A stretch of 34,045 bases of DNA, taken from NCBI GenBank assembly GCA_964623785.1, contig CAZUVK010000013.1, positions 1 to 34,045 on the forward strand, in the 5' to 3' direction. The notes beneath the pieces were generated by a model. That model did not search any database, was not told the origin of the DNA, and saw nothing but the letters and a program-made list of their open reading frames with translations. Shown piece by piece: positions 2,171 to 16,987 of this stretch. Each line of letters opens with the position of its first letter. Position 1 is the first letter of the stretch. The DNA comes from an uncultured Gemmatimonas sp. GTDB lineage: Bacteria > Gemmatimonadota > Gemmatimonadetes > Longimicrobiales > Longimicrobiaceae. The translations under genes and the position numbers were made by a program.

Positions 2171-2260
2171 ACGCTGCTCAGAGCAAACCCGCCGAAAGAC
2201 GGGGGCGCAGAGCCACGGGGCTACCGCGGTTTCCACCGCCATGCCAGCCGGGCCGCCAGC
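2171..2260 (+). promoter_or_regulatory. GEMM-I (c-di-GMP-I class) riboswitch aptamer, copy A
   Basis: ACGCUGCUCAGAGCAAACCCGCCGAAAGACGGGGGCGCAGAGCCACGGGGCUACCGCGGUUUCCACCGCCAUGCCAGCCGGGCCGCCAGC. Matches the remembered Vc2/GEMM-I core block by block: CAGGGCAAACC, a hairpin with GAAA tetraloop, GACGCAAAGCC, CGG-CU, the P2 hairpin, then AGC-GGG. The tetraloop hairpin is CCCG/CGGG and the second hairpin is GCGGU-UUCC-ACCGC. Confidence 0.75.
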
Positions 2261-2426: not shown

Positions 2427-2545
2427 GCGCTGCTCAGAGCAAAACCGCTGAAAGGCGGTGACGCAGAGCCACGGGGCTACAGCGGTCATCATCGATCGCC
2501 ACGCCAGCCGGGCCGCCAGCCACGACGATGCAGAAAAGCTGGCGG
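2427..2545 (+). promoter_or_regulatory. GEMM-I (c-di-GMP-I class) riboswitch aptamer, copy B, plus downstream alternative hairpin
   Basis: GCGCUGCUCAGAGCAAAACCGCUGAAAGGCGGUGACGCAGAGCCACGGGGCUACAGCGGUCAUCAUCGAUCGCCACGCCAGCCGGGCCGCCAGC (2427-2520). Same conserved blocks as copy A, but both hairpin stems have different, still complementary sequences (CCGC/GCGG; GCGGUC/GAUCGC). The conserved 3' strand CCGCCAGC (2513-2520) can pair perfectly with GCUGGCGG (2538-2545), 32 nt before the ATG at 2577. Confidence 0.75.
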
Positions 2546-4748: not shown

Positions 4749-4828
4749 CAATGGTCGGCGCCCCTGTACGAGAATAGCTAGGGAATTTCCCGGGGGGACC
4801 CCTGAAGTCGAGAATGAAATGGCGGTAG

Positions 4829-4932: not shown

Positions 4933-6072
4933 TCAGCCTTCGCGATGGGTGGGGACCATTGATCTGATAAGTGCCCGATATCGATCCAGGTACACTTCGG
5001 TGGTATACTCTCGCAGCGCGCGCTCCCGGGCCCGTTCGCCGAGCTCGCGAGCGTACTCCGGAGACGCCATCAATCGTCGAAGAGCCAGTGCCAGGCCCTC
5101 GGAACTTCCTGTTTCGAACAAAAGCCCGTCGACGCCATCCTCGATCACGCTCGGAATGCCTCCCGCGCGACTCCCTATCCGTGGTCGGCCGACCAACGCC
5201 GCTTCGAGAAGGACCCTCCCCATTCCCTCTGATCTCGAAGGAAGAACGAGGAAGCTCGAGTCTTCGATCAGGCTTCGAATGACCTCGGCCTTCTGCGGCC
5301 CCATGATTTCGACGCGGTCGTCGACCAGGCATGTCTCGCGGGCTGCCTTCTCGATTCCGAATCCCACCAGGACGAGGCGCCATTCGGGGAACGATGGGGC
5401 AACTTCATTGAAGGCTTTCAACAGCAGGTCCACGCCCTTGAGCAGGAACGGATGCCCGACAAAAAGGATCTGCCGCCGCGGCTCCGCCCCCGTCGGAGCG
5501 AAGAGCTCCGAATTGACGATATCGGGGAAAGCGGTGACCGGTGTCGTGGCGTTCTGGAGGTCAAATCCCTCGATCTGCTCCGGATAGAGTGGCTTCAGCA
5601 TGTCGACGCGGGACATGACCGCCGATCCGACCTTGACCATTCGGTGTCGCCTGGTCTCCGCGACAGCGCGATCTGGTTCGTCGATGAACGTATCCGGATG
5701 CCAGTAGACGCCGTTCACTTCGCAAATGACCTTCGCTCCGGTAAGCCTCTTGAGGATCAGGGCCAGGACGCCACTCTGCAGAGGATCGTAAGAAAGCAGC
5801 AGGAGGGACCGCCCTCGTCCCCATCGGATCCAGAGACCCCGGGATACTACCCGCCACATGTAGGCCAGGCGTGAGAGACGCGGAAGGCCATTGAGCGAAC
5901 GAAGCGTGCGCGCCCGGAATCTTCCGGCCCGGATTTCCTGCGTTGCCCCTCCCCAAGTAATGATCTCACCGTCGAACTCAGCGCCGAAAGTTCCCGCCAG
6001 GACTCGCAGATCCTCAACGGACCAGACGGGGCCGGGGCGAATGACGTAGAGATATGGGCTACCGGACCCCAT
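4933..6072 (-). CDS. Glycosyltransferase family 4 (Glycos_transf_1)
   Basis: 379-aa ORF with ATG start. C-terminal half reads FVGHPFLLKGVDLLLKAF...VLPSRSEGMGRVLLEAALVGRPRIGSRAGGIPSVIEDGVDGLLF, the typical GT4 E-x7-E region. Confidence 0.85.
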   Translation of the reverse strand: MGSGSPYLYVIRPGPVWSVEDLRVLAGTFGAEFDGEIITWGGATQEIRAGRFRARTLRSLNGLPRLSRLAYMWRVVSRGLWIRWGRGRSLLLLSYDPLQSGVLALILKRLTGAKVICEVNGVYWHPDTFIDEPDRAVAETRRHRMVKVGSAVMSRVDMLKPLYPEQIEGFDLQNATTPVTAFPDIVNSELFAPTGAEPRRQILFVGHPFLLKGVDLLLKAFNEVAPSFPEWRLVLVGFGIEKAARETCLVDDRVEIMGPQKAEVIRSLIEDSSFLVLPSRSEGMGRVLLEAALVGRPRIGSRAGGIPSVIEDGVDGLLFETGSSEGLALALRRLMASPEYARELGERARERALREYTTEVYLDRYRALIRSMVPTHREG

Positions 6073-6689
6073 CGTGCCCCCGTAGATCCCGAGATCTCAT
6101 TGAAAATGCTCCTGGTTCGTATGGGCGGAAATTGTGACCGAGTCGAGTCGGAACAAGACGTCGACCGCAGCCCTCAGGCTTCGATGTAGTGAAAGCAGTT
6201 TTTCAGTTGGCACCCCCCCGTTTCGTCGAGCGAAGGGGGTAAGAATGGCTTCCGTTTGCCGTCGCGCCGTCTCTGTGGTCATGTCACCGAAGCGAATAGC
6301 CCCTCTCCGCCAAACGTGGGGCACTTCACCCTGGCCAATTCACGGCGGATCATGCGTGTTCGGTTGGAAGTTGGAGAATACCCAATGGTTACGATCTGAG
6401 CCGATTGCGGAAGTGTGGGCGGGCTGTGAAGACGCGAGCTTCGCAGGTTGTTTCTTGCAGGGAACCTACGCCGGGAACGCCGGTCGGAAGCACGCGCGAT
6501 GATTGCCGCAGGCCAGTCCGGCCTCAAGCGCGATCAGCATGCTTGCAACAGCCGAGTCAATGTACCAAGCCCGCTGCGCGCCCGCGCATCGCCGCTCGTT
6601 CATTCCATCCAACGGGAGCGCTTGCGGAGGAGGAAGCAGGTGCCGACTGGCCTGGTCATTCCGCCGCGAGTGAGATCCCGTCACCACCA

Positions 6690-8069
6690 CTATCCGACTT
6701 CCATCGGGGTTCTGAGAACACGAGCGGGCGCTTTTCGCGCCGTTGCCGCCCTGGCGCCAGGAAAAAGCCGGCTGGCGCACAGATCGAAGCCCGCAACCAT
6801 GGCAATCACGCTGTATATGATCGGCGCATACGCCATCGACAGAAAGAAGCCACCCACACAGTACGCGACAATGGAGAGCGAGAGGACCTCGGCAGCCAGC
6901 ACAACCTCGTCTCCCACGGGCGTGCCGCGCAGGTGTCGTCTGGCCAATCCTCGGATCCGGTAGAGTCGGAAGAGGGCGCCCAGCAGCATCATCAGGAAGA
7001 GCGTCAACCCCGGATACCCGGTCTCCGTGCCCATCTCCACGAAGGCGTTGTGCGCGGCCTTCCCGGACCAACCGGCCTGGCCCTGCCGCGCCTGAGGTGC
7101 CAGATAGAGATCGGCGACCGGGAAGTTGGTCATTCCCACGCCGGCGATCGGATTGTCGCTCAGATAGCCGAAGGCGCGCTTCCAGATCTCCACTCGCCCG
7201 TGCTCGTCGTCGACGTTGTAGTCGTCGGCCGGGGTAAACAGGGTGGAGAGGCGCTCCTTGGTAGCAGGGGGCGCAAAGGTGTAAGCGAACACGACGAGAA
7301 CTGGTGGCAACAAGCGTATCCAGAACTTGATGGCTGACGCCTTCAGCAGGATGATGATCGTGAGCAGCCCCACCGTGAGGAACGCGCCGCGCGACTGCGT
7401 CATGAGCGCGCAGACGGTCAGGAGGGCCAACAGACCCCAGAGTGACAACTTGAGCCAACCTTGCGGAGCGCGGATCGCGAAGAACAGGACAAACGGCAGG
7501 GCCATGTTCAGATGCATGGCCATGTCGTTCACGTCGTACATCGGGACGGGGCTCCCCCACAGCGCAAACCCACCCTTCGCATAGAAAGCGGCGAGAGTGG
7601 CCGCTCCGAAAATGTGGGCCGCCATCGCCTGTTTCACGGTATGGAAAGTCGTGAAGCAGGTGAGCAGAAAGAGAACCATTGTGAGGGTCTTGAAGTGCGA
7701 CCCCCACCACGACTCCCATGCGATCTCGGTACTAAGCGCAAAAGGTACTGTCACGCCGATCCAGAGCACGCTCAGAATGAGCGGGCGAACCCCCGCGCGC
7801 GGAATGATCGACTTGAGGTGATTGAGCCGGGGAGCACACACGAGGAACGCCCAGGAGCCAATCGTCGCGATCGCCGACAGACGGAGGGGCGCGATCAACC
7901 CGGAGAGATCGTGGAAGCGCCAGACATAGGTCAACAGGACCAGCCCCATCAGCGCGGTGCGCGGCTCGAGGAGCGCCCTGGCCTCCACCCGCCACCACGG
8001 CATCGGTGCCCCGGCGCGGGGGCGGGGCCGCGAGGTCCGAACCGGAGCGGGCAGCGTAGAGACGCTCAT
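6690..8069 (-). CDS. O-antigen ligase / Wzy-like polymerase family membrane protein (Wzy_C)
   Basis: 459-aa polytopic ORF. LMTQSRGAFLTVGLL and AAHNAFVEMGTETGYPGL are typical Wzy_C/O-antigen-ligase motifs. Its ATG shares one nucleotide with the upstream stop (TGATG at 8067-8071). Confidence 0.8.
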   Translation of the reverse strand: MSVSTLPAPVRTSRPRPRAGAPMPWWRVEARALLEPRTALMGLVLLTYVWRFHDLSGLIAPLRLSAIATIGSWAFLVCAPRLNHLKSIIPRAGVRPLILSVLWIGVTVPFALSTEIAWESWWGSHFKTLTMVLFLLTCFTTFHTVKQAMAAHIFGAATLAAFYAKGGFALWGSPVPMYDVNDMAMHLNMALPFVLFFAIRAPQGWLKLSLWGLLALLTVCALMTQSRGAFLTVGLLTIIILLKASAIKFWIRLLPPVLVVFAYTFAPPATKERLSTLFTPADDYNVDDEHGRVEIWKRAFGYLSDNPIAGVGMTNFPVADLYLAPQARQGQAGWSGKAAHNAFVEMGTETGYPGLTLFLMMLLGALFRLYRIRGLARRHLRGTPVGDEVVLAAEVLSLSIVAYCVGGFFLSMAYAPIIYSVIAMVAGFDLCASRLFPGARAATARKAPARVLRTPMEVG

Positions 8070-9026: not shown

Positions 9027-10970
9027 TCAAGCGTTCCACTCCCGCCGCCACGCGATCAACTGGAGTATTGTCCACAGGCCGTCAGCGAGATGATGCTCAC
9101 CCTTCCGGAATGACCCCCACGCGCCGAGCACGGCCTCCCTGTTCAGGAGATCACCCGGGTCACCGCTCAAAAGATCGGACGCCCATTCCCGGAGCGGACC
9201 GTTCAACCAGGCGGCCACCGGGACCGTGAAGCCCGTCTTCGGCCGCTCCACGAGTTCTCTCGGGACGTGACGGAAAAGTATGCGGCGGAGGACGTGCTTG
9301 CCGTGACCGTCCCGGATCTTCTGGTCTCGCGGCAAACGCCACGCATACTCGATGAGCCGATGATCGAGCAGGGGCACCCGTACCTCCAGGCCGACCGCCA
9401 TGCTTGCCCGGTCGACCTTCGCCAGCAGGTCGTCCGGGAGGTAGGTGACCTGGTCCGTCGCCATCATCCGTTCGATCAACGGCAGTCCGGCGAAGCGATC
9501 GAGCGCGTGGTCGACGGGAGACGCATCGGGAGCGCCGCCATGAAGGAAGTGTCGTGGCTCCTGCCAGGCTGAAAGGAGCGAGCGATACATTTCGGCCTCG
9601 GAGGCTCCCCTCAGCAGGTTGCCGATCTTGCTGACCTTCTGCCCCGCAAGCCTGTGGCGCGCGCCACCCGGAAGGAGCGGACCAACCGCCCGATAGGTAC
9701 GATCCCACCCGCTGGACGAGACGGATCCGATGCCGGCGGCGGCGAGCCGCCTCAGTGGCGCGGGCACATGACTCATCCGCGAGATCAGGCGTTCGCCATC
9801 GAGATAGCGGTGATAGCCGGCCATGACCTCGTCACCGCCATCTCCGGAAAGCGCGACCGTCACGTTGCGCCGCGCGAGTTCGCACACCATGTACGTCGGG
9901 ATCTGCGACGCATTCGCCAGCGGTTCGTCGAACATCACCGGAAGCCGGGGAACCAGCTGGAGCGCGTCCTCTCCCGTCACCGTCAGTTCGGTGTGGGTCG
10001 TCCCGAGGTGACGGGCCACCGCGGCGGCGTGAGGGGCCTCGTTGTGCGCGGCGTCGTCGAACCCGATGCAGAACGTCTTCAACGCGAAGGGCGAAACGCG
10101 CTGCGCCAGCGCGACGACGAGCGACGAGTCGATTCCTCCCGAGAGCAGCGCTCCGAGCGGGACGTCGGCCTGCAGGCGAAGACGAATCGAATCTTCGAGC
10201 AGCCGTTCGACTTCGGCGTCGATCTCGTCATCGGAACCGGCGACCGGATTGGCGATCCCGCTCGCTATCACGTCCGCGATCGACCAGAAGGGCTCCTCGC
10301 GCCCGTTTCCCGCGTCACCTTCCCGGATCTCGAGGATGGTACCGGGCAATAACTTCTTGACATCCCGGAAGATCGATCGCGGCGCGGGTACGTAGCGATA
10401 GCGGAGATACGCCGATATCGCTTCCTCGTCGATGGCCCGGTCGAACCCCGGCACCGCCATGAGGGCCTTCAGCTCGGATCCGAAGAGGAACGTTCCGCCT
10501 TTTCGCCCAAAGTAGAGCGGTTTGATTCCGAGACGGTCCCGGACCAGCGAAAGCTTCCGTTCCTCGACATCCCACAGCGCCATCACGAACATTCCGACGA
10601 ACCTGCCGACCGCGGCTCGAACGCCCCAATGTTCGAAGGCGGCGAGGATCGTCTCCGTGTCGGAGTGTCCGCGGAACCGGAAGCCGGCTTCCTCGAGCTC
10701 GCGGCGAAGCGCGAGATGGTTGTATACCTCGCCGTTGAAGACGAGCATGAACCGCCCCGACGCGGAGCGCATCGGCTGATGCCCGTGGGCAGACAGGTCG
10801 ACGATCGCCAGCCGGCGAAACCCAAGCGCGATCCCGGTCGCGGGATCGCTCCACCGACCGGCGTCGTCGGGACCCCGGTGGACCAGGGTTTCCGTCATCC
10901 GCGCCACCGTCTGATCGAGATCCAGCCCGGACGCTCCGCCCATCAGCAGCAAGCCCGCGAAACCGCACAT
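9027..10970 (-). CDS. asnB: Asparagine synthase (glutamine-hydrolysing) family amidotransferase
   Basis: 647 aa starting MCGFAGLL (Cys2 Ntn nucleophile). SGGIDSS PP-loop motif (LLSGGIDSSLVVALA). The length and layout are typical of AsnB-type enzymes found in EPS loci. Confidence 0.9.
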   Translation of the reverse strand: MCGFAGLLLMGGASGLDLDQTVARMTETLVHRGPDDAGRWSDPATGIALGFRRLAIVDLSAHGHQPMRSASGRFMLVFNGEVYNHLALRRELEEAGFRFRGHSDTETILAAFEHWGVRAAVGRFVGMFVMALWDVEERKLSLVRDRLGIKPLYFGRKGGTFLFGSELKALMAVPGFDRAIDEEAISAYLRYRYVPAPRSIFRDVKKLLPGTILEIREGDAGNGREEPFWSIADVIASGIANPVAGSDDEIDAEVERLLEDSIRLRLQADVPLGALLSGGIDSSLVVALAQRVSPFALKTFCIGFDDAAHNEAPHAAAVARHLGTTHTELTVTGEDALQLVPRLPVMFDEPLANASQIPTYMVCELARRNVTVALSGDGGDEVMAGYHRYLDGERLISRMSHVPAPLRRLAAAGIGSVSSSGWDRTYRAVGPLLPGGARHRLAGQKVSKIGNLLRGASEAEMYRSLLSAWQEPRHFLHGGAPDASPVDHALDRFAGLPLIERMMATDQVTYLPDDLLAKVDRASMAVGLEVRVPLLDHRLIEYAWRLPRDQKIRDGHGKHVLRRILFRHVPRELVERPKTGFTVPVAAWLNGPLREWASDLLSGDPGDLLNREAVLGAWGSFRKGEHHLADGLWTILQLIAWRREWNA

Positions 10971-11053
10971 CTATGGATGCCTTCGTTCGTCGGTCATTCC
11001 TCGATGAACCCTCCCGGCGCGGATCAACGCGATCCGCGGGGCGATCGTGGAGT

Positions 11054-11355
11054 CAAGCCCGGTACAATGTATCCCCGCCGCGACACCGCGGGGTACGTCT
11101 TCGGAATGGGGTGGCGCGACCACTCGCAACCTCCGCGACCATGTCGAGTATCGGCGGAATGCCGCCAAGACTATGGTGATCATGGTGGTCCGATTGGCTG
11201 AGATCCGCGCCAAAATCTGTCGGGGGATCGAGACTCCGGATTGTGACGGTGACAGACTTGATGGGAAGCGGTTCCCGTTCGCATCGAAGCCGGCTTACGG
11301 AGCCGGCCGATTTGGCCGCCCCCAAGCCGCCCCGGTGCGTGCACTTCGCGGACCA
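11054..11355 (-). ncRNA. Unclassified block-conserved structured leader element, copy 1 (83 nt upstream of the asnB ATG)
   Basis: Shares six highly conserved blocks with 15193-15509, in the same order. The blocks are separated by unrelated spacers of equal or similar length that form copy-specific hairpins. Block 2 (11138-11177) folds on the minus strand as ACCAU-A-GUC-UUGGCGG-CAUU-CCGCCGA-UACUC-GAC-AUGGU. Strand assignment comes from G-U-compatible substitutions (see findings). Confidence 0.55.
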
Positions 11356-11360
11356 CCGGT

Positions 11361-11798
11361 TCACTCGGCGAGGAGTTCCACGAGCCCGGCGTAAGGGCTA
11401 TACATAAAACATACGAGGCGGCCGTCAAATGCGACCGCGGGTACTATCCGGCCCACGGGGAAGAGGCCGGATTCACGCAGGGTCGCCTGCGTGGCGACAA
11501 TATCCGTTACCTCGTAACATGTATGATAGGGGGATGTGCGTACTTTATTGAGAATGCCAGCAACTGGCGAGGATTGACCTACGGGGGCAACGAGTTCGAT
11601 TAGCGGATCGCCGACTCGCTGGAGGAAGCATAGCCGAACGTTCTGTATACGGTCCTCGTAAACATCCTGACCCACTCGGGAGTACCCCAGCGCTTCGTAC
11701 AACGCGGTACTCCTGGAAAGGTCGTGAGTTGCGACTCCAATATGGTGAAATCTCATTGGTTCCATTGTGGGTCGGCGTTCAGATGCAATATTCCGCAT
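11361..11798 (-). CDS. VOC (glyoxalase / methylmalonyl-CoA-epimerase-like) family protein
   Basis: 145-aa ORF. MRFHHIGVATHDL...LIELVAP...HTCYEV is the VOC beta-alpha-beta-beta-beta signature. The true start may be the internal ATG at 11765 or 11756. Confidence 0.7.
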   Translation of the reverse strand: MRNIASERRPTMEPMRFHHIGVATHDLSRSTALYEALGYSRVGQDVYEDRIQNVRLCFLQRVGDPLIELVAPVGQSSPVAGILNKVRTSPYHTCYEVTDIVATQATLRESGLFPVGRIVPAVAFDGRLVCFMYSPYAGLVELLAE

Positions 11799-11893
11799 AT
11801 CTCATCGTTGAACCGAATCAGGTGGTGACAGCTGTATCATTTGCGGTGTGTGGTTGTTCAGCAGCAGTCCGCTGAAGCTTGGGGAGCTTCCGA

Positions 11894-12991
11894 CTATTGA
11901 TCCCAAGGCTCCATTGCGAATCTTTGCCAGCGTTCCCCGTCCAGGCCGGTGAGGGCCGCATCTCCCAGGCAGACGACATTGAGAAGCTCCCGATCCCGCG
12001 AATGGACTAATGCATAGGTCTCAGGGTGTCGAAAGAAGCAGAAGTTGCGGGTCAGCGTAGTCAGCTGGTCCGGGCGGGTCGTCCCCTTCACCATCGCGCA
12101 TCCAAGCTGTTTGGCATCGGAAAGGAGTATGTGGAAGATGGGCTCGAAATCCTCCGTCCGTCTGCGACCAAGCTGCAACAGGTACGCTGCCCCCCCTGGC
12201 TGGACGAAGTATATAAGCCAACCACATGTCACACCGTCCGAGTCGGTCACCACGAGCATCCGAAGCGTTCGGTCGCTGACACGTGAGACCTGAGAAATCA
12301 ACCACGCGAAAGAAGCGCGGTCATAGTCAGGCTTCAAAGGTTCCCGCCATCCGATATCCTCGATGCAATTCATAACTTCTTCCGCGGAGGCGGGGCGCGC
12401 ACTGTAGGTTGTGCCTGGCGGCCGAAGAGGCCCAGCTCGTGTGACTATCCGGTCCGCCACTCCCGTGGCGACCCCCGCAGCAGCAAGTAGGGGCTTGTTG
12501 GCCCACCCAGAGCGGCCAAGTACGTCGCGGGCCATCGCGAACGGTTGAAGAATCCGCGTCCAGTGAAGCGCGTAAAATGGGGCTGGAGTGCTGCCGAAGG
12601 GCCGGTGCAGAAGGTACACGGGATCCGATGAACCATCCGCCCATGTCATGTCTTGCGGGCCCCGAAAGCAAGTACCGAGAAGTTTAATCGCGGCCAGGCC
12701 GTTTCTGTGCTTGGGGTCCACCATAAACTGCGTGAGCGTCGCTACCTGAATCTGCTTGTCGCGAAACAACATCGGTCGCGGAACAATCCCAAGCGCCGCC
12801 ACGACTTTTCCTCCCTCCATTGCAACGAGGGAGGGAAGGTCCTGCCGGGCCCATGGATTCTGGAGCAACGTCTCGCAAAAGTACGCCGCAAGGGCGGAAC
12901 CAGGTATATCCGGGCGCCCCCGCATTGCGCGAAAATGGAGGAGGGCGCAATCGGGAGCGTGTTCCTCGCGGAAAGGTTGAATCTCAATCAT
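11894..12991 (-). CDS. GNAT-fold acyltransferase-like protein (about 365 aa, extended C-terminal domain)
   Basis: The listed ORF starts at a TTG (13009); the first ATG at 12991 gives MIEIQPFREEHAPDCALLHFRAM...VVAALGIVPR...QFMVDPKHRNGLAAIKLL (GNAT-like acyl-CoA pocket region). Lies directly downstream of the ACP and FkbH genes. GC is lower than the flanks. Confidence 0.6.
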   Translation of the reverse strand: MIEIQPFREEHAPDCALLHFRAMRGRPDIPGSALAAYFCETLLQNPWARQDLPSLVAMEGGKVVAALGIVPRPMLFRDKQIQVATLTQFMVDPKHRNGLAAIKLLGTCFRGPQDMTWADGSSDPVYLLHRPFGSTPAPFYALHWTRILQPFAMARDVLGRSGWANKPLLAAAGVATGVADRIVTRAGPLRPPGTTYSARPASAEEVMNCIEDIGWREPLKPDYDRASFAWLISQVSRVSDRTLRMLVVTDSDGVTCGWLIYFVQPGGAAYLLQLGRRRTEDFEPIFHILLSDAKQLGCAMVKGTTRPDQLTTLTRNFCFFRHPETYALVHSRDRELLNVVCLGDAALTGLDGERWQRFAMEPWDQ

Positions 12992-13088
12992 CAACGGTTC
13001 ACGGCGCAACCGCCCTCTCGAAACGGAGCGGTTGCATACTCAATGGGCGAATGCAGTGTGAGGCCGTCCGGTAGTTTCGGGCCGGCTA

Positions 13089-13328
13089 CTACGTACTCGC
13101 ATCGCGTTCGAAGCGCGCCAGTACCAGCGGGAACGAGGTCAAGGATTCGAGGTCTTCGAGTTCCAAGGACAGGCCAAACTCCTCAGCCAAAGCGGCTAAC
13201 AGCGTGACGTGAGCAAGCGAATCCCAAGCGGAAAGGGATTCCGTGTCCGCGCCGCGAATCCCATCTTCATCAAGACCGGGGAAGACATTGGCAAAACATG
13301 CCACTACGCGTTTCTCAGTATCACTCAT
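13089..13328 (-). CDS. Acyl/peptidyl carrier protein
   Basis: 79 aa from the ATG at 13328, 4 nt after the FkbH stop: MSDTEKRVVACFANVFPGL...SLSAWDSLAHVTLLAALAEEFG, with a DSL phosphopantetheine-attachment motif. The 121-aa listed ORF extension overlaps the fkbH 3' end. Confidence 0.8.
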   Translation of the reverse strand: MSDTEKRVVACFANVFPGLDEDGIRGADTESLSAWDSLAHVTLLAALAEEFGLSLELEDLESLTSFPLVLARFERDAST

Positions 13329-13332
13329 AACA

Positions 13333-15084
13333 TTAGACCATCCCTTCGTTGTCCAGGTCGATGATAGTGTGAGGCAATACAAACTCACCGGCGGCGAACT
13401 CTTCCCGGCTGATGCCGACAGTGCCCGGGGCGTCGACCGCGATGCCAATAGCATGAAAAAACTCCCTTAGCGGGCCATTGCGTTCGGTTGCCTCGTAATC
13501 GAAGGTAACCGCCGTGGCCCCTGTCTGGCGGAAGAGCCCATCAAGCGCATGATACTCGAGGCGGCGCGAGAAAGCCCGGCAACTCATCACCCAGTGAGTC
13601 ACATGAACAGTATCGCCGTGTCTAGAGCCCTTCAAGACGGCGATCCTGCCGAGCGGACCAAACCTGTCGGCGTAGGAAAGCACCAGAATGACGCCAGCCG
13701 AGTCTTCAAGGTCCCTTCGCCATGCCCCTTCACTAATACGCCGACCATTCAGATTGAATTGATTGGTCTTGTTCACCAGTTCGAATGCACGATTGTCGTG
13801 CAGCGGCACCTGCCACGCCAGCGTGACAGACCCTTGCAGCTCGCGAAGGAACTGTGGAGACCCGGCGGGCACATTCGCCACCAACTCCCCGATCTCCGTG
13901 CTGGAGCGAATACTTGCCTGGCGGAGTTTGTCTTCATCCGAGAACGCGGGTCGACCAAAGAGGGTGCGAAGCGTTTGCAGGAGAGTCCAGACTTTTCGCG
14001 GGTCTTTGCCGTCGAAGTGCAACCCGGTGATACCGGGGTGATTGCTGCGTACCTCTTCGATCTCCATGGGGCTGTCGTCGATGAACACCACGGAATCCGC
14101 GCTGATGTTCCAGGTCTCGAGAATTCGTGCCACGCTGGCCGACTTTGGCCCCCATCCGACTTCGACCGGGAAGAACGTGTCGGGAGCGACAAATAGGTCT
14201 TCGCGCGCCAAGGCGGTCCGAACGGTATGCGGATCGTTCTTGGAAGAGATTCCCACGAGGACACCACTAGAAGCCAGGTAGCCCAACATCTGTTGATAGA
14301 GTCCGTGAGTCTGCGTGTGGGCTTCCTGGCTCCAGGTGACCGCATCAGGCCCAACCTCGCCCACAATCCCGCGCCAAAGAGTGTCGTCAAGGTCGGTTAT
14401 CAGGCCCTTCCTGGGCGACGACGGCCAGAGGACCGCAGCGATCGAACTCGCGAGTGAATCGGCGAACGGAAGGGTGTAGGGGAAACCCGCGATCAACTCC
14501 ATCCTGGAATCCAGTGCGGCATCCGTCCTGCTCGCGTCGGGCCGGCGTGCGATTCGCACTCCCGGCAGATGGGATACGCGAAGGAGGAACGAGTCAACCG
14601 AGCAGTTCAGCTCCAGTTCGAATCGGCTCTGTTGGTCGGGGGGAGTCCCACCGATTGGGGGACACGGCAGGTTGGGCGGAGCCACGGCGACAGGCATGCG
14701 GGTGCCAAGGCTACCCAAACGATCTTCAAGCAGAGCCAAACGCTTCTGGACGGTTGCGACGATGGAGTCCTTGGCGTCCTCGGCCCAGCCGCCACTGGCG
14801 CGCAACCCCAGGAGCGGATTGAGATCGGGCCACTCAATGACGACGGCCGCGGCGATCGCGTCTGACGCTACGGCCGATTCGAGATTCCCAAATATGTCAC
14901 CGTAGACACCGGATCTCAACTCGACCTGGCCCGGCAGCCTTTCCAGAAGGTGACCGCGCAGAAGGGTAGCCAGGTGTAGCGGCTCGAAACCGCACACCAG
15001 CCAATGTGGAGTGACCGGCGTTGCTGCATTTCGGGAGTTAATAAGAGCAAGCGCTTCATTCAAAGTCATGTCGACATCCAGCAC
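13333..15084 (-). CDS. FkbH-like HAD-IIIC family protein (glyceryl-ACP-forming type)
   Basis: 583 aa. LITDLDDTLWRGIVGE is the HAD DxDxT motif as in FkbH (LDLDNTLWGG). Also has the IDD motif (VVFIDDSPMEIEEV) and an FkbH-type C-terminal domain. The listed start is GTG at 15084; the first ATG is at 15069. Confidence 0.85.
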   Translation of the reverse strand: MLDVDMTLNEALALINSRNAATPVTPHWLVCGFEPLHLATLLRGHLLERLPGQVELRSGVYGDIFGNLESAVASDAIAAAVVIEWPDLNPLLGLRASGGWAEDAKDSIVATVQKRLALLEDRLGSLGTRMPVAVAPPNLPCPPIGGTPPDQQSRFELELNCSVDSFLLRVSHLPGVRIARRPDASRTDAALDSRMELIAGFPYTLPFADSLASSIAAVLWPSSPRKGLITDLDDTLWRGIVGEVGPDAVTWSQEAHTQTHGLYQQMLGYLASSGVLVGISSKNDPHTVRTALAREDLFVAPDTFFPVEVGWGPKSASVARILETWNISADSVVFIDDSPMEIEEVRSNHPGITGLHFDGKDPRKVWTLLQTLRTLFGRPAFSDEDKLRQASIRSSTEIGELVANVPAGSPQFLRELQGSVTLAWQVPLHDNRAFELVNKTNQFNLNGRRISEGAWRRDLEDSAGVILVLSYADRFGPLGRIAVLKGSRHGDTVHVTHWVMSCRAFSRRLEYHALDGLFRQTGATAVTFDYEATERNGPLREFFHAIGIAVDAPGTVGISREEFAAGEFVLPHTIIDLDNEGMV

Positions 15085-15192
15085 GTGTGTTGAACCGAAA
15101 CAGCGGGACGCATTGCCGTCGGATCAGCGTCCGTCGAAGATCGTCTCCGGAAGCCGCGGAGCCAACTGGAACTCTTCCTTCTCGGGCTTCGT

Positions 15193-15509
15193 CAAACCCG
15201 GCACCAATGTGCCCCCGCCCGCGACACCGCCAGGTGCCCGTCCAGCACGCAGCGGCGAGCCGCGCGGCAGGGCACATACCCGCGACCATATCGAGTATCG
15301 ACGGATTGCCGCCGAGACTATGGCGATCACAGGTGTTCAGGTGGCTGAGACCCACGCTGGACGTCGTCAGGAGGTCAACCCTCCGGATTGTGACGGCGGC
15401 GGACGTGGTGGAGCACGGGCCCCGATTCGCGTTCGCGGCATGAGCGGTTGTTTGAGCCAGCGAATTCGGCCGCCCCGGTGCCGCCCGGGTGGGTGCACTT
15501 CGCAGACCA
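15193..15509 (-). ncRNA. Unclassified block-conserved structured leader element, copy 2 (about 110-125 nt upstream of the fkbH-like start)
   Basis: Paralogue of 11054-11355. Block 2 (15285-15324) folds on the minus strand as GCCAU-A-GUC-UCGGCGG-CAAU-CCGUCGA-UACUC-GAU-AUGGU. Lies in the divergent 670-bp gap between fkbH (-) and a GT gene (+). Confidence 0.55.
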
Positions 15510-15754
15510 GTGACGTCCTGTACCACGTACCTGGCGGCCGTCGAGCGGTCCATCGCCCGCCACGGGGTGGTTTCATTGCCACGGCTGTGGCGCCGCGCCA
15601 ACACTCGGTCCGGAGAAGGGCGATCGATTGAGCGGCCGGCCGACACACCCACCGCGGCGGCGCTCGGTTCGCAAGTCCGTCTTCGGTATGGACGTTGCGA
15701 CCGTCGGGGCCCGTCGTCGTGGACGAAATCCGGACTTCACTCAGCGCGAGAATA

Positions 15755-16987
15755 ATGCGAATCTGCCTTGTATGGGACGCCGAGTATCCGTGGGACGTTC
15801 GCGCGGCCAAGGTGGCGAGATCCTTGACGGAGGCCGGTCACGATGTGCACATGGTCGCGCGCAACCGCGACGCAAGGCCGTTGGAGGAGCGTCTTCCGGA
15901 GTGCACGGTCCACCGGATGGCCCCGCTCGACGGGATCGGAACAGGGTTGAGCGGGGCGAGTATGTTTCCGGCGTTCTTCAATCCGCGGTGGGCGAATCTG
16001 ATTGAGCGGGTCTCGCGGCGCATCGAAGCGGATGTGATTCTCTGCCGGGACCTTCCGCTCACGCCGACATCGGTGTACGTCGGCCGGCGGTTGGGGATTC
16101 CGGTCATTCTGGACATGGCGGAGAACTACCCGGCCATGATTCGGTCGGTCTGGGAGAATGGACGGCACCGGTGGAGCGACTGGCTCGTTCGCAATCCCGC
16201 GTTCGTGACGCGCGTCGAGAACTGGTCATGCCGGAACGTGGATCACATCATCGTCGTCGTTGAAGAGTCGCGCGACCGGCTCGCCGCGATGGGCGTGGCC
16301 GCGGACCGAATGACGATCGTGAGCAACACCCCGCCGCTGGATCATCTGTCGTCGTCAACAGCCGATACCTCCGACCTGGCCGACCAGGAACCGCTTCACG
16401 TCGCGTATCTCGGCCTGCTGGAGGCGCCGCGCGGCATCTCGACGCTAATTCAGGCTGTCGGGATCGTTCGCGACCGTGGCGTGAAGGTTCGCCTCACGTT
16501 GATCGGGGATGGCCGTGAGCGCGCCGACTTCGAGGAAGAGGCGCGCCAGGTCGACCCCTCGGGGGGCATCATCGAGTTCCTGGGGTACCTGCCGAACGAC
16601 GACGCCCTGCGGCGCCTCCGAAGTGCGCACATCGGGGTGATTCCGCACCACGCGGACGAAAGCTGGAACACCACGATTCCCAACAAGCTTTTTGACTACA
16701 TGGCCGCCGGTCTGCCCGTTGTCGGCTCGGATGCCCCGCCAGTCGAGCGAGTGATTGATGAGACCGGGTGTGGCCGGGCTTTCCGCGATCGCGATCCGGG
16801 CAGTCTCGCCGACAAGCTGATCGAACTGAGGGGTGGAGATGTGCGATGGCGCGCCGCGGAGGCCGGTCGCGAGGCGGTTCGCCGAAACTACAACTGGGGT
16901 GTCGACGCAGACCGTCTGCTTGAAGTGGTGGAGCGGGTGGGAGGAAGCGGTCAAGTGTCCGCGCCACCGGTCGGGAGTCACGCGTGA
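15755..16987 (+). CDS. Glycosyltransferase family 4
   Basis: ATG at 15755 gives MRICLVWDAEYPWDVRAAKVARSLTEAGHDVHMVARN (GT4 N-domain). The C-domain reads IPNKLFDYMAAGLPVVGSDAPPVERVIDETGCGRAF. The upstream 20 codons of the listed ORF look non-coding. Confidence 0.85.
   Translation: MRICLVWDAEYPWDVRAAKVARSLTEAGHDVHMVARNRDARPLEERLPECTVHRMAPLDGIGTGLSGASMFPAFFNPRWANLIERVSRRIEADVILCRDLPLTPTSVYVGRRLGIPVILDMAENYPAMIRSVWENGRHRWSDWLVRNPAFVTRVENWSCRNVDHIIVVVEESRDRLAAMGVAADRMTIVSNTPPLDHLSSSTADTSDLADQEPLHVAYLGLLEAPRGISTLIQAVGIVRDRGVKVRLTLIGDGRERADFEEEARQVDPSGGIIEFLGYLPNDDALRRLRSAHIGVIPHHADESWNTTIPNKLFDYMAAGLPVVGSDAPPVERVIDETGCGRAFRDRDPGSLADKLIELRGGDVRWRAAEAGREAVRRNYNWGVDADRLLEVVERVGGSGQVSAPPVGSHA

What the first reader, a model, noticed from the sequence alone, without database searches (positions are those of the whole stretch)
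11054..15509. Unclassified ~310-nt structured leader present twice, with substitutions that preserve pairing only on the minus strand
11054-11355 and 15193-15509 share six near-identical blocks in the same order. Read on the + strand these are: CAARCCCGGYAC-AATGTRYCCCCGCC-GCGACACCGC; CCGCGACCATRTCGAGTATCGRCGGAWTGCCGCCRAGACTATGGYGATCA; GGCTGAGAYCC; CTCCGGATTGTGACGG; GGCCGCCCC; GCCGCCCSGGTGSGTGCACTTCGCRGACCA. The spacers between blocks are unrelated in sequence but equal or similar in length (43/49, 13/13, 27/27, 64/71, 3/3 nt), and they form copy-specific hairpins. The 64/71 spacer breaks any common reading frame, so this is not a conserved small ORF. The 50-nt second block has 5 differences between copies. 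On the minus-strand transcript it folds into a 15-bp interrupted hairpin. In that fold 4 of the 5 differences sit in stems and each switches Watson-Crick to G-U (A-U/G-U, U-G/C-G, G-C/G-U, C-G/U-G), while the fifth lies in the loop (CAUU/CAAU). On the plus strand the same four sites would be A-C mismatches. A second helix shows a full compensatory change: GAUCC 11202-11206 with GGAUC 11225-11229 in copy 1, versus GACC 15349-15352 with GGUC 15373-15376 in copy 2. Both copies sit at similar distances (83 nt and about 110-125 nt) upstream of the first gene of a minus-strand gene block, asnB and fkbH-like. I could not match the element to any riboswitch or RNA family I know. It may be a processive-antitermination or riboswitch-type leader specific to this glycan locus. 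One small hairpin in the first block (GGUAC/GUAUC versus GGCAC/GUGCC) covaries but has a G-U that fits the plus strand better, so strand assignment is not airtight.
Basis: seen in the sequence. Interest (0 to 1): 0.8.

Follow-up and report, generated by a model that had tools for sequence, protein, structure and literature searches.

The report
Repeated structured leader in polysaccharide locus
A roughly 310-base non-coding element occurs twice in a sugar-coat (exopolysaccharide) gene cluster, each time just upstream of a gene block; it most likely acts as a folded RNA leader on the gene-sense strand, matches no known RNA family, and has so far been found in only two or three uncultured bacteria.

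Summary
Window 11040-11358 and 15178-15512 are two copies of one non-coding element. Conserved blocks are 90% identical and spacers 53%. I found two more full copies and one decayed fragment in two contigs of a related organism, always upstream of asnB or fkbH and in the gene's orientation. There is no Rfam hit, no protein-coding signal, no DNA-level terminal inverted repeat, and no promoter match above chance.

A four-sequence consensus fold on the minus strand closes the element with a long-range helix (P1). P1 pairs the 5' block with the 3' block and encloses several hairpins. Substitutions that keep pairing through G-U are enriched on the minus strand only (30, against 18.5+-3.4 in shuffled and refolded alignments; the plus strand gives 21). 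Fold energy and full compensatory changes are not significant with four sequences.

Pattern scans of 185,579 species genomes and of the JGI metagenomes found no further members, so the family is very narrow.

Best reading: a cis-acting leader or intercistronic RNA shared by two sub-operons of an exopolysaccharide locus. The mechanism is unproven. Loading of an antitermination-type factor or ligand sensing are the leading guesses. It is a new, unclassified candidate of a known kind and of moderate interest.

The parts
11040..11358 (-). Element copy 1. It lies between the glyoxalase-family gene (stop at 11361) and asnB.
   Evidence: CM R1 335 bits; nhmmer E 7.5e-100; alignments.
15178..15512 (-). 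Element copy 2. It lies in the divergent intergenic region between fkbH-like (-) and a GT4 gene (+).
   Evidence: CM R1 322 bits; nhmmer E 1.3e-95.
11334..11358 (-). Copy 1, block B6': 5' strand of the proposed closing helix P1.
   Evidence: Consensus fold; duplex with 11065-11087 is -21.5 kcal/mol on the minus sense against -15.6 on the plus sense.
11065..11087 (-). Copy 1, block B1': 3' strand of P1.
   Evidence: P1 has 18 pairs, 2 double-sided changes, 6 one-sided wobble-compatible changes and 2 broken cells across four copies.
15488..15512 (-). Copy 2, block B6': 5' strand of P1.
15205..15228 (-). Copy 2, block B1': 3' strand of P1.
11133..11182 (-). Copy 1, 50-nt block B2'. The inner hairpin is 11147-11172 (AGU/ACU plus UYGGCGG/CCGYCGA, loop CAWY).
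   Evidence: z = -3.1 on the minus strand and -1.5 on the plus strand. The inner stem is paired in 100% of cells in four copies, with two positions switching between C-G/G-C and G-U.
15280..15329 (-). Copy 2, block B2'. The inner hairpin is 15294-15319.
   Evidence: z = -4.3 on the minus strand and -0.8 on the plus strand.
11202..11229 (-). Copy 1, hairpin P6, formed by the 27-nt spacer between B4' and B3'.
   Evidence: 9 pairs, 2 with double-sided changes (U-A/C-G and C-G/U-A), 94% of cells paired.
15349..15376 (-). Copy 2, hairpin P6.
11234..11249 (-). Copy 1, block B4' (CCGTCACAATCCGGAG). It is identical in both window copies; in the relative it reads CACGATCCWGAG.
15381..15396 (-). Copy 2, block B4'.
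15516..15633 (-). Extension of about 115 nt upstream of copy 2. It is conserved upstream of the L012 and L013 copies and absent from copy 1. It may be a promoter region or a further part of the transcript.
   Evidence: alignment; blastn of L013 665-1089 against window 15633-15205 gives 75%.
10971..11039 (-). Leader between copy 1 and asnB. It holds an 8-bp hairpin (11018-11038) and an 8-codon upstream ORF (10971-10997) whose UAG stop abuts the asnB AUG.
   Evidence: Read. The hairpin is kept in L013 with a C-to-U change that gives G-U. The upstream ORF length and stop position are kept in L013.
15070..15177 (-). Leader between copy 2 and fkbH-like.
   Evidence: It is orthologous in L012 but has no conserved terminator.
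9027..10970 (-). asnB-type amidotransferase, first gene downstream of copy 1. PIG-L deacetylase and a Wzy_C polymerase/ligase follow.
   Evidence: Pfam Asn_synthase 8.5e-106.
13333..15069 (-). FkbH-like HAD-IIIC protein, first gene downstream of copy 2. A carrier-protein-like ORF, a GNAT-like gene and a glyoxalase-family gene follow.
15056..15652 (-). 198-aa ORF laid over copy 2 that the source record carries as a protein. I judge it spurious.
   Evidence: The exact sequence is in the protein collection from the NCBI record. It has no homologue in 5.8 billion proteins, no Pfam family, and no codon periodicity in its substitutions.

Best explanation
The element is a cis-acting structured RNA domain of about 310 nt. 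It is transcribed on the minus strand as part of the exopolysaccharide mRNA. Copy 2 is the 5' leader of the fkbH sub-operon. Copy 1 is the leader of the asnB/PIG-L/Wzy sub-operon and sits 5 nt after the stop of the preceding gene, so it can also be reached by read-through.

The domain is closed by a long-range helix (P1) between its first and last conserved blocks. P1 encloses a multi-helix core that includes a strongly conserved 50-nt hairpin with fixed internal-loop and bulge nucleotides. Because the same blocks are kept in both leaders while the spacers have drifted to saturation, both copies probably bind the same partner, either a protein or a small molecule. That would put the two sub-operons under one signal.

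My committed guess for the output step is control of transcription elongation or read-through into the long downstream gene block. This would be antitermination-type factor loading, as with EAR, ops/RfaH, UpxY leaders or the twice-used boxA of rrn operons. The guess rests on three points: no local terminator or ribosome-binding-site sequestering hairpin is conserved, one copy is internal to a co-directional gene run, and long polysaccharide operons commonly use such systems.

Shown here: repetition, non-coding nature, block-versus-spacer constraint, orientation, and structure-compatible variation on the minus strand. Inferred: that it is transcribed, that it binds a factor, and the output mechanism.

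Rough odds: cis-acting minus-strand RNA about 0.5. Within that, antitermination or elongation control about 0.2, ligand-sensing riboswitch about 0.15, and translation, stability or processing control about 0.15.
For: - Two copies share 90%-identical blocks and 53%-identical spacers.
- Ortholog comparisons agree: blocks 86-90% against spacers 66-73%.
- Four full copies all lie upstream of asnB or fkbH in the gene's orientation.
- In L013 the element travels with asnB even though a transposase fragment lies upstream.
- The 13-, 27- and 3-nt spacers keep their length with no sequence conservation, whereas the B2'-B1' spacer ranges from about 14 to 50 nt. That fits variable hairpins rather than phased DNA sites.
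- The consensus fold has 89 pairs with 93.4% of cells paired.
- P1 has 18 pairs, two double-sided changes and six wobble-compatible changes.
- P6 has two double-sided changes.
- One-sided pair-preserving changes number 30, against 18.5+-3.4 in refolded column shuffles (0 of 120 shuffles reach it). Variable pairs that stay fully paired number 25, against 16.4+-3.1 (1 of 120). The plus strand gives 21 and 17, within the null.
- P1 duplex energies are -16 to -21.5 kcal/mol on the minus sense and -9 to -19 on the plus sense.
- The B2' hairpin has z = -3.1 and -4.3 on the minus strand.
- The leader hairpin 11018-11038 is kept in L013 through a G-U change.
Against: - Only four sequences from two or three closely related genomes are available.
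- Consensus fold energy is not better than shuffles (z = -0.94 with four sequences, -1.45 with three).
- Single-sequence whole-element z is only about -1.1 to -1.2.
- Double-sided covariation is not significant against a refolded null (8 against 5.8+-2.2).
- The predicted global fold changed when the alignment changed. GC-rich repeats such as GCGG/CCGC offer many alternative helices.
- B1' is not the uniquely best partner of B6' (rank 6 to 32 among sliding windows).
- The hairpin's strand asymmetry is weak or absent in L012 and L013.
- No conserved terminator, anti-terminator or RBS-sequestering hairpin was found.
- No NusG-type paralog is in the 34-kb window.
- There are no expression data.
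Confidence: 0.5

Rival explanations
1. It is a DNA-level control region. The blocks would be a promoter plus binding sites for transcription factors, for example a sigma-54 promoter in block B6' (CTGGTCYGCGAAGTGCA has GG-N10-GC) and a 7-4-7 palindromic operator in B2' (TYGGCGG-N4-CCGYCGA). The same module would be used in front of two sub-operons.
For: - Copy 2 lies in a divergent intergenic region that must hold promoters.
- L013 has a transposase fragment upstream, so a promoter must lie close to or inside the unit.
- B6' is the best-conserved block in four copies.
- The B2' core is an imperfect inverted repeat.
- An extension of about 115 nt is conserved upstream of three copies.
Against: - The sigma-54 consensus match in B6' has 3 mismatches in copy 1 and more in copy 2. 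At that stringency the window has 35 sites, against 48+-7 expected by chance.
- No sigma-70-like site was found.
- About 150 conserved bases spread over 310 nt is far more than a promoter plus operator needs.
- The spacer between B2' and B1' ranges from about 14 to 50 nt, which breaks helical phasing.
- Variable positions in the blocks are pyrimidines opposite G on the minus strand, which DNA sites do not predict.
- The positions that a sigma-54 promoter leaves free (the N4 between the two promoter elements) are invariant.
Confidence: 0.17
2. It is an independent, trans-acting or processed small RNA gene that merely sits in these intergenic regions. Alternatively it is an RNA processing or stability module without a sensing function.
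For: The domain is closed (P1) and could exist as a discrete, stable RNA. No expression platform is conserved.
Against: There are two copies within 4 kb, each fixed 73-125 nt upstream of a first gene in the same orientation. No own terminator follows either copy. The element travels with asnB in L013.
Confidence: 0.1
3. It is a repeat with no regulatory role. It would be a decayed mobile element or dispersed intergenic repeat (MITE- or BOX-like), an invertible promoter flanked by inverted repeats, or a relic of a segmental duplication that now serves only as a recombination substrate.
For: - The L012 copy is a recombinant: its 5' part is copy-2-like, while its 3' block, leader and the first roughly 85 nt of asnB are copy-1-like.
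- A decayed B2' fragment is fused to an asnB fragment.
- A transposase fragment lies next to the L013 copy.
- The first and last blocks are partly complementary.
Against: - No Watson-Crick terminal inverted repeat is detected at DNA level. P1 depends on G-U pairs in 7 columns and has no A-C pair.
- All four copies have the same orientation relative to the downstream gene.
- Divergence is mosaic (blocks 90%, spacers 53%), not uniform as in decaying repeats.
- Spacers as short as 3, 13 and 27 nt are fully diverged between near-identical blocks. Gene conversion tracts cannot produce that pattern.
- There are no matches in plasmid, phage or viral collections.
Confidence: 0.1
4. It encodes a small protein. 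One candidate is the 198-aa ORF 15056-15652 (-) that the source record annotates. Another is the open plus-strand frame that reads RDH[VI]EYRR..AA.TM through blocks B2-B4 in all copies.
For: - An ORF over copy 2 is annotated in the source.
- One plus-strand frame is free of stops in three copies, and B2-B4 stay in frame in all four.
- Two indels are multiples of three (6 and 33 nt).
Against: - Substitutions are spread evenly over codon positions (for example 9/11/8, 7/10/6 and 8/4/6), so no frame on either strand shows third-position excess.
- A 7-nt indel shifts the frame between orthologs w1 and L013.
- The annotated ORF has no homologue among 5.8 billion proteins and no Pfam family.
- Gene callers placed no ORF over the L012 and L013 copies.
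- Stop-free frames of about 105 codons are expected at 65-68% G+C. My own estimate is about 2.5 stops expected, so P(0) is about 0.08 per frame.
Confidence: 0.03

Closest known systems
EAR / epsC motif (eps-associated RNA of Bacillales; Rfam epsC family)
   Same: It is a structured RNA inside or at the head of an exopolysaccharide operon and is found in 5' UTRs of EPS genes (PMC2864571). From my own knowledge, EAR lies between the second and third eps genes and promotes read-through of distal terminators. That matches copy 1 being internal to a co-directional gene run.
   Different: There is no match to any Rfam model, including epsC, even at E<=10. The element is about 2.5 times longer, comes from a different phylum and occurs twice in one locus. 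Its activity is untested.
Leaders served by specialised NusG paralogs: ops/JUMPstart with RfaH, UpxY leaders of Bacteroides capsule loci, LoaP leaders
   Same: These are conserved leader elements just upstream of several polysaccharide gene blocks in one genome. They prevent premature termination in long operons (PMC7819879).
   Different: No ops sequence GGCGGTAG occurs in or near either copy; the two window matches are elsewhere and at chance level. No NusG/KOW protein is encoded in the window. ops acts as an 8-12-nt DNA element, not as a 310-nt folded RNA.
boxA/boxB (nut) sites of rrn operons and lambdoid phages
   Same: The same element is used twice in one transcription unit, in the leader and at an internal spacer, to load or reload an elongation complex modifier (established knowledge).
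   Different: Those sites are 10-30 nt long. No sequence similarity was seen, and there is no evidence that the two copies here lie on one transcript.
Large riboswitch or leader classes (T-box, cobalamin, glmS); the c-di-GMP-I riboswitches present in the same window
   Same: It is a cis-located leader with conserved unpaired nucleotides embedded in covarying helices. The domain is closed by a P1-type helix next to the regulated gene. The same locus already uses riboswitch control.
   Different: There is no Rfam match. No conserved expression platform was found. There is no ligand hint other than the gene functions. Distribution is very narrow, whereas riboswitch classes are usually widespread.
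Modular intergenic repeats (pneumococcal BOX, Correia/NEMIS, ERIC)
   Same: It is a repeated intergenic element built of modules, able to fold as RNA, and prone to recombination.
   Different: Only EPS-gene-proximal copies are known, always in one orientation. Divergence is mosaic rather than uniform. There are no DNA-level terminal inverted repeats.

Membership tests
Any Rfam 15 family (4227 models, including epsC/EAR, T-box, Acido-1, Acido-Lenti-1, c-di-GMP-I/II) | Score at or above the family's gathering threshold with its covariance model | tested here: not met
   The whole window at gathering score gave only two c-di-GMP-I hits, at 2172-2260 and 2428-2520. Window 10900-15800 at E<=10 gave only a 20-bit chance snoRNA hit inside fkbH. 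L012 and L013 at E<=5 gave nothing.
EAR / epsC processive-antitermination RNA | Located within or at the head of an EPS biosynthesis operon | tested here: met
   Both copies lie inside a glycosyltransferase, Wzy, deacetylase, asnB and fkbH cluster.
EAR / epsC processive-antitermination RNA | Promotes read-through of downstream terminators | not testable with these tools
   This needs reporter or Term-seq experiments.
RfaH/ops (JUMPstart) leader | ops element GGCGGTAG on the non-template strand of the leader | tested here: not met
   The only two exact matches in the window are at 4821 and 28684 (+), not in the leaders. 24 of 100 shuffles give 2 or more matches.
Leader served by a locus-encoded NusG paralog (UpxY/LoaP type) | A NusG-like gene adjacent to the target operon | tested here: not met
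   No NusG_N/KOW hit in any plausible ORF of the 34-kb window. A stand-alone gene elsewhere in the genome cannot be excluded.
Riboswitch (generic) | Conserved aptamer supported by covariation across many lineages | tested here: inconclusive
   Four copies are available. Wobble-compatible changes are enriched (30 against 18.5+-3.4), but double-sided changes are not significant (8 against 5.8+-2.2) and neither is fold energy (z = -0.94).
Riboswitch (generic) | Expression platform (terminator/antiterminator or RBS sequestering) overlapping the aptamer's 3' strand | tested here: not met
   No terminator-like site follows either copy on the minus strand. The hairpins in the copy-2 leader are not kept in L012 (my reading).
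Sigma-54 promoter | TGGCACG-N4-TTGCW match above background | tested here: not met
   Copy 1 matches with 3 mismatches and copy 2 with more. There are 35 such sites in the window against 47.8+-7.2 expected.
Invertible promoter (inverton) or MITE | Watson-Crick terminal inverted repeats flanking the segment | tested here: not met
   The repeat finder (seed 6, minimum length 10) finds no terminal inverted repeat in either copy. All four copies share one orientation relative to the gene.
Protein-coding gene | Substitutions concentrated at third codon positions; homologous proteins exist | tested here: not met
   Differences per codon position are flat. The annotated 198-aa ORF is an orphan among 5.8 billion proteins and has no Pfam family.

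The most novel reading that the evidence does not exclude
The element founds a new class of large (about 310 nt) cis-regulatory RNA for exopolysaccharide-modification operons in an uncultured Acidobacteriota- or Gemmatimonadota-like lineage. It is a closed, multi-helix domain that binds a dedicated factor or metabolite. It is reused at the head of, and inside, one long gene run to couple two sub-operons. This would be an EAR- or nut-like elongation switch, or a new riboswitch, with no sequence or structural relative in Rfam.
Probability: 0.3. Interest if true: 0.6.

Novelty: new member of a known kind. Interest (0 to 1): 0.42.

Why it matters
Long polysaccharide operons in many phyla depend on special leader elements to be transcribed in full. 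The known ones (ops/RfaH, UpxY leaders, EAR, LoaP leaders) come from a few well-studied groups. Nothing comparable is known for Acidobacteriota- or Gemmatimonadota-type soil bacteria, whose exopolysaccharides matter for soil aggregation and survival.

A conserved folded leader used twice in one such locus would give a concrete handle on how these organisms switch sugar-modification modules (amidation by AsnB, acyl decoration via FkbH/ACP). It would also add a sizeable new RNA family. A practical point: the source record annotates one copy as a 198-aa hypothetical protein, which is almost certainly wrong. The value is limited by the very narrow distribution seen so far and by the lack of expression data.

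Tried and rejected
Searches for more copies that found none:
- Genome-contig scan with CCATAGTCN{12,24}ATACTCGANATGG gave 8 hits, all chance. None carries any other block. In hindsight this pattern would have missed the L012 copy (GTAT instead of GTCT).
- Metagenome-contig scans with CCGTCACAATCCGGAGN{18,42}TCTCAGCC and with a purine/pyrimidine-relaxed B2' hairpin pattern both gave 0 hits. The first pattern was also too strict for the L012 and L013 variants.
- Two viral-contig scans, and blastn against plasmids and phages, gave nothing.
- Loci of more distant FkbH homologues (L009-L011, 57-59% identity) and AsnB homologues (L014 68%, L015 64%, L016 63%, L017 61%) gave no nhmmer or CM hit.
- The annotated ORF over copy 2, used as bait for mis-called ORFs over other copies, had no homologue.

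Explanations tested and rejected:
- Sigma-54 promoter idea for B6': not above chance.
- ops/RfaH site: absent.
- T-box resemblance (GGUACCG-like string in B1'): not conserved among copies and no Rfam hit.
- Inverton or MITE: no DNA-level terminal inverted repeats.
- Coding: no codon periodicity.
- 'Concerted evolution' of blocks within a genome: seen for the window pair (90%) and for B4', but the L012/L013 pair is only 81% in blocks, so I do not claim it.

Structure alternatives left unresolved:
- Enumerating all helices compatible with four sequences gave 89 candidates on the minus sense and 58 on the plus sense. That is too many to single out alternatives such as B6'/B2'-tail (UCYGCGA/UCGCGGR, 7 bp).

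Full report
**1. The observation**

The two stretches exist as described. Reading the sequence and aligning the minus-strand versions gives six shared blocks in the same order, separated by spacers that do not align. A repeat search recovers the same pairs. In a four-sequence alignment made later, the two window copies are 90% identical in the blocks (138/153) and 53% in the spacers (79/150). Spacers of 3, 13 and 27 nt have identical lengths but unrelated sequence. An nhmmer profile and a covariance model find exactly two copies in the 34-kb window and no diverged third copy.

**2. Context**

The window is one large exopolysaccharide-type locus. It encodes many GT4 glycosyltransferases, a Wzy_C protein, PIG-L and polysaccharide deacetylases, UDP-GlcNAc 2-epimerase, an ABC exporter, an NRPS module, ATP-grasp enzymes and FemAB-like acetyltransferases.

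- Copy 1 (11040-11358) lies 5 nt after the stop of a glyoxalase-family gene and 83 nt before asnB, all on the minus strand.
- Copy 2 (15178-15512) lies in a divergent intergenic region, about 123 nt before the fkbH-like gene (start at 15069, confirmed by the identical protein call in a relative).

The closest protein relatives point to uncultured Bryobacteraceae (FkbH, 53-61% identity) or Longimicrobiales/Gemmatimonadales (AsnB, 57-64%), so the phylum is not settled.

**3. Known families**

Rfam 15 gives nothing for either copy at gathering score or at E<=10, and nothing for the copies in the related contigs. The only Rfam hits in the window are two tandem c-di-GMP-I aptamers far from the finding.

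**4. Homologues**

- Exact-pattern scans of one genome per species (185,579 species) and of the JGI metagenomes found no real match. Neither did scans of viral contigs, plasmids or phages. Two of my patterns were, in hindsight, too strict for the variants found later, so these scans bound the family loosely.
- The protein route worked. A 90%-cluster mate of FkbH and an 88%-identical AsnB led to two Logan contigs from run SRR31724220.
- L013 carries a full copy (781-1112) 73 nt upstream of asnB. Here a transposase fragment on the other strand lies upstream instead of the glyoxalase gene.
- L012 carries a full but recombinant copy upstream of fkbH. Its 5' part is orthologous to copy 2. Its last block, the leader and the first roughly 85 nt of asnB resemble copy 1.
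- L012 also carries a decayed fragment of the 50-nt block fused to an asnB fragment.
- More distant FkbH and AsnB homologues (57-68% identity, seven loci) have no trace of the element by nhmmer or covariance model.

The family therefore has four full members in two or three closely related genomes. All four lie upstream of asnB or fkbH and share the gene's orientation.

About 115 nt upstream of the element are also conserved in copy 2, L012 and L013, but not in copy 1. The ancestral unit was probably longer. Copy 1 either uses read-through from the fkbH block or has a start site I cannot see.

**5. Not coding**

The source record annotates a 198-aa protein over copy 2. One plus-strand frame also stays open through blocks B2-B4 in all copies. 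However:

- Differences between copies fall evenly on the three codon positions (9/11/8, 7/10/6, 8/4/6 and so on), which excludes selection on any frame of either strand.
- A 7-nt indel separates orthologs w1 and L013.
- The annotated ORF has no homologue among 5.8 billion proteins and no Pfam family.

**6. RNA structure and strand**

The 50-nt block folds into a hairpin that is clearly better than shuffles on the minus strand in the window copies (z = -3.1 and -4.3; plus strand -1.5 and -0.8). In L012 and L013 the difference between strands is small.

With four sequences, RNAalifold closes the element by a helix P1 between the first block (B6') and the last block (B1'). P1 has 18 pairs. Two pairs changed on both sides, both in L012 (C-G to U-A). 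Six changed on one side through G-U. Two cells are broken. Inside P1 are:

- a helix between the tail of B6' and the spacer after B2';
- hairpin P6, made from the 27-nt spacer, with two double changes;
- the B2' inner hairpin, paired in 100% of cells;
- several weaker helices.

I built an honest null by shuffling alignment columns within conservation classes and refolding each shuffle:

| Measure | Observed (minus) | Refolded null | Plus strand |
|---|---|---|---|
| Consensus fold energy | z = -0.94 | not significant | - |
| Double-sided changes | 8 | 5.8+-2.2 | - |
| One-sided pair-preserving changes | 30 | 18.5+-3.4 (0 of 120 reach it) | 21 |
| Variable pairs that stay fully paired | 25 | 16.4+-3.1 (1 of 120) | 17 |

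The plus-strand values lie within the null. P1 duplexes are 2-7 kcal/mol more stable on the minus sense.

Caveats: the global fold changed with the alignment, and the GC-rich sequence allows many alternative helices. I regard P1, P6 and the B2' inner hairpin as reasonably supported and the rest as provisional. That block is better explained as the 3' strand of P1.

**7. DNA-level rivals**

- The sigma-54-like string in B6' is no better than 35 other sites in the window, against 48 expected.
- No sigma-70-like promoter or intrinsic terminator is found at either copy or in L013.
- No ops site is present.
- No Watson-Crick terminal inverted repeats exist. Together with the constant orientation, this argues against an inverton or MITE.
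- The mosaic divergence, with fully diverged spacers as short as 3-27 nt between near-identical blocks, cannot come from gene conversion or uniform decay.
- Recombination between copies has nonetheless happened (L012). I take that as a consequence of repetition, not as the function.

**8. Mechanism**

What is shown:
- a repeated, constrained, non-coding element;
- fixed position and orientation before two gene blocks;
- variation that preserves minus-strand pairing.

What is inferred:
- It is transcribed with the genes and folds into a closed domain.
- It binds a common partner.

No local expression platform is conserved, one copy is internal to a co-directional run of genes, and long polysaccharide operons typically need elongation-level control (PMC7819879; PMC2864571 for the epsC/EAR motif). 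I therefore favour antitermination-type factor loading. I put this specific step at only about 0.2, a ligand-sensing riboswitch at about 0.15, and other post-transcriptional roles at about 0.15, within an overall 0.5 for a cis-acting minus-strand RNA.

**9. Comparison and novelty**

The element works most like EAR, ops or UpxY-type polysaccharide leaders, or like a large riboswitch. It fails every membership test I could run for named families (Rfam models, ops, adjacent NusG paralog, terminator-type platform). It is best filed as a new, unclassified candidate within the known kind 'cis-regulatory leader RNA of polysaccharide operons'. Its narrow distribution, the small number of sequences and the absence of expression data keep the interest moderate.

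Noticed in passing
window 2172-2260 and 2428-2520 (+); also L015 449-533 and 622-709: There are two tandem c-di-GMP-I riboswitch aptamers (61 and 59 bits) upstream of a large Big_1/Big_2 Ig-domain protein. The listed ORF start (GTG at 2367) overlaps the second aptamer, so the real start is probably after 2520. The same tandem arrangement precedes a Big_2 protein in the distantly related EPS locus L015.
   Followed up: partly
window 15056-15652 (-): The source record carries a 198-aa 'protein' laid over element copy 2. It is an orphan among 5.8 billion proteins and shows no coding signal, so it is probably a mis-annotation.
   Followed up: yes
L012 5563-5811 and 9221-9608: In the related contig, the copy upstream of fkbH is a recombinant that carries a copy-1-type last block, the leader and the first roughly 85 nt of asnB. 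A second asnB 5' fragment is fused to a decayed 50-nt block after the GNAT-like gene. The glyoxalase gene is missing, and GDSL-lipase, carbamoyltransferase and SxtJ-like genes follow instead. The repeated elements appear to act as recombination points in locus remodelling.
   Followed up: partly
L012 13668-13692 and L013 1-25: The last 25 nt of L012 equal the first 25 nt of L013 (same sequencing run). The two contigs may therefore be neighbours in one genome, separated by an rve_3 transposase fragment (L013 9-488). However, asnB-side identity to the window is 81% and fkbH-side identity is 92%, which suggests a mosaic locus.
   Followed up: no
window 10971-10997 (-); L013 1157-1183: An 8-codon upstream ORF (MTDERRHP in the window, MTDNRRRP in L013) ends in a UAG stop that directly abuts the asnB AUG. 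It is preceded by GGGAGGG (GGGAUGG in L013). This may indicate translational coupling.
   Followed up: no
window 6073-6689: A 617-nt gap lies between Wzy_C (6690-8069, -) and the next GT4 gene (4933-6072, -). It has no Pfam-recognisable ORF and no Rfam hit. In L013 the corresponding GT4 gene is inverted relative to asnB/Wzy.
   Followed up: no
window 10828-10849 (-): A terminator-like hairpin with a 9-bp stem and a weak U-tail lies about 120 nt inside the asnB coding sequence. The number of such sites in the region equals the shuffle expectation.
   Followed up: partly
L016 1-330 and L017 1-298: Two Logan contigs with AsnB homologues (63% and 61% identity) both end 170-300 nt upstream of asnB. 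The covariance model finds no element there. The shared break point might still reflect a repeat of another kind.
   Followed up: partly
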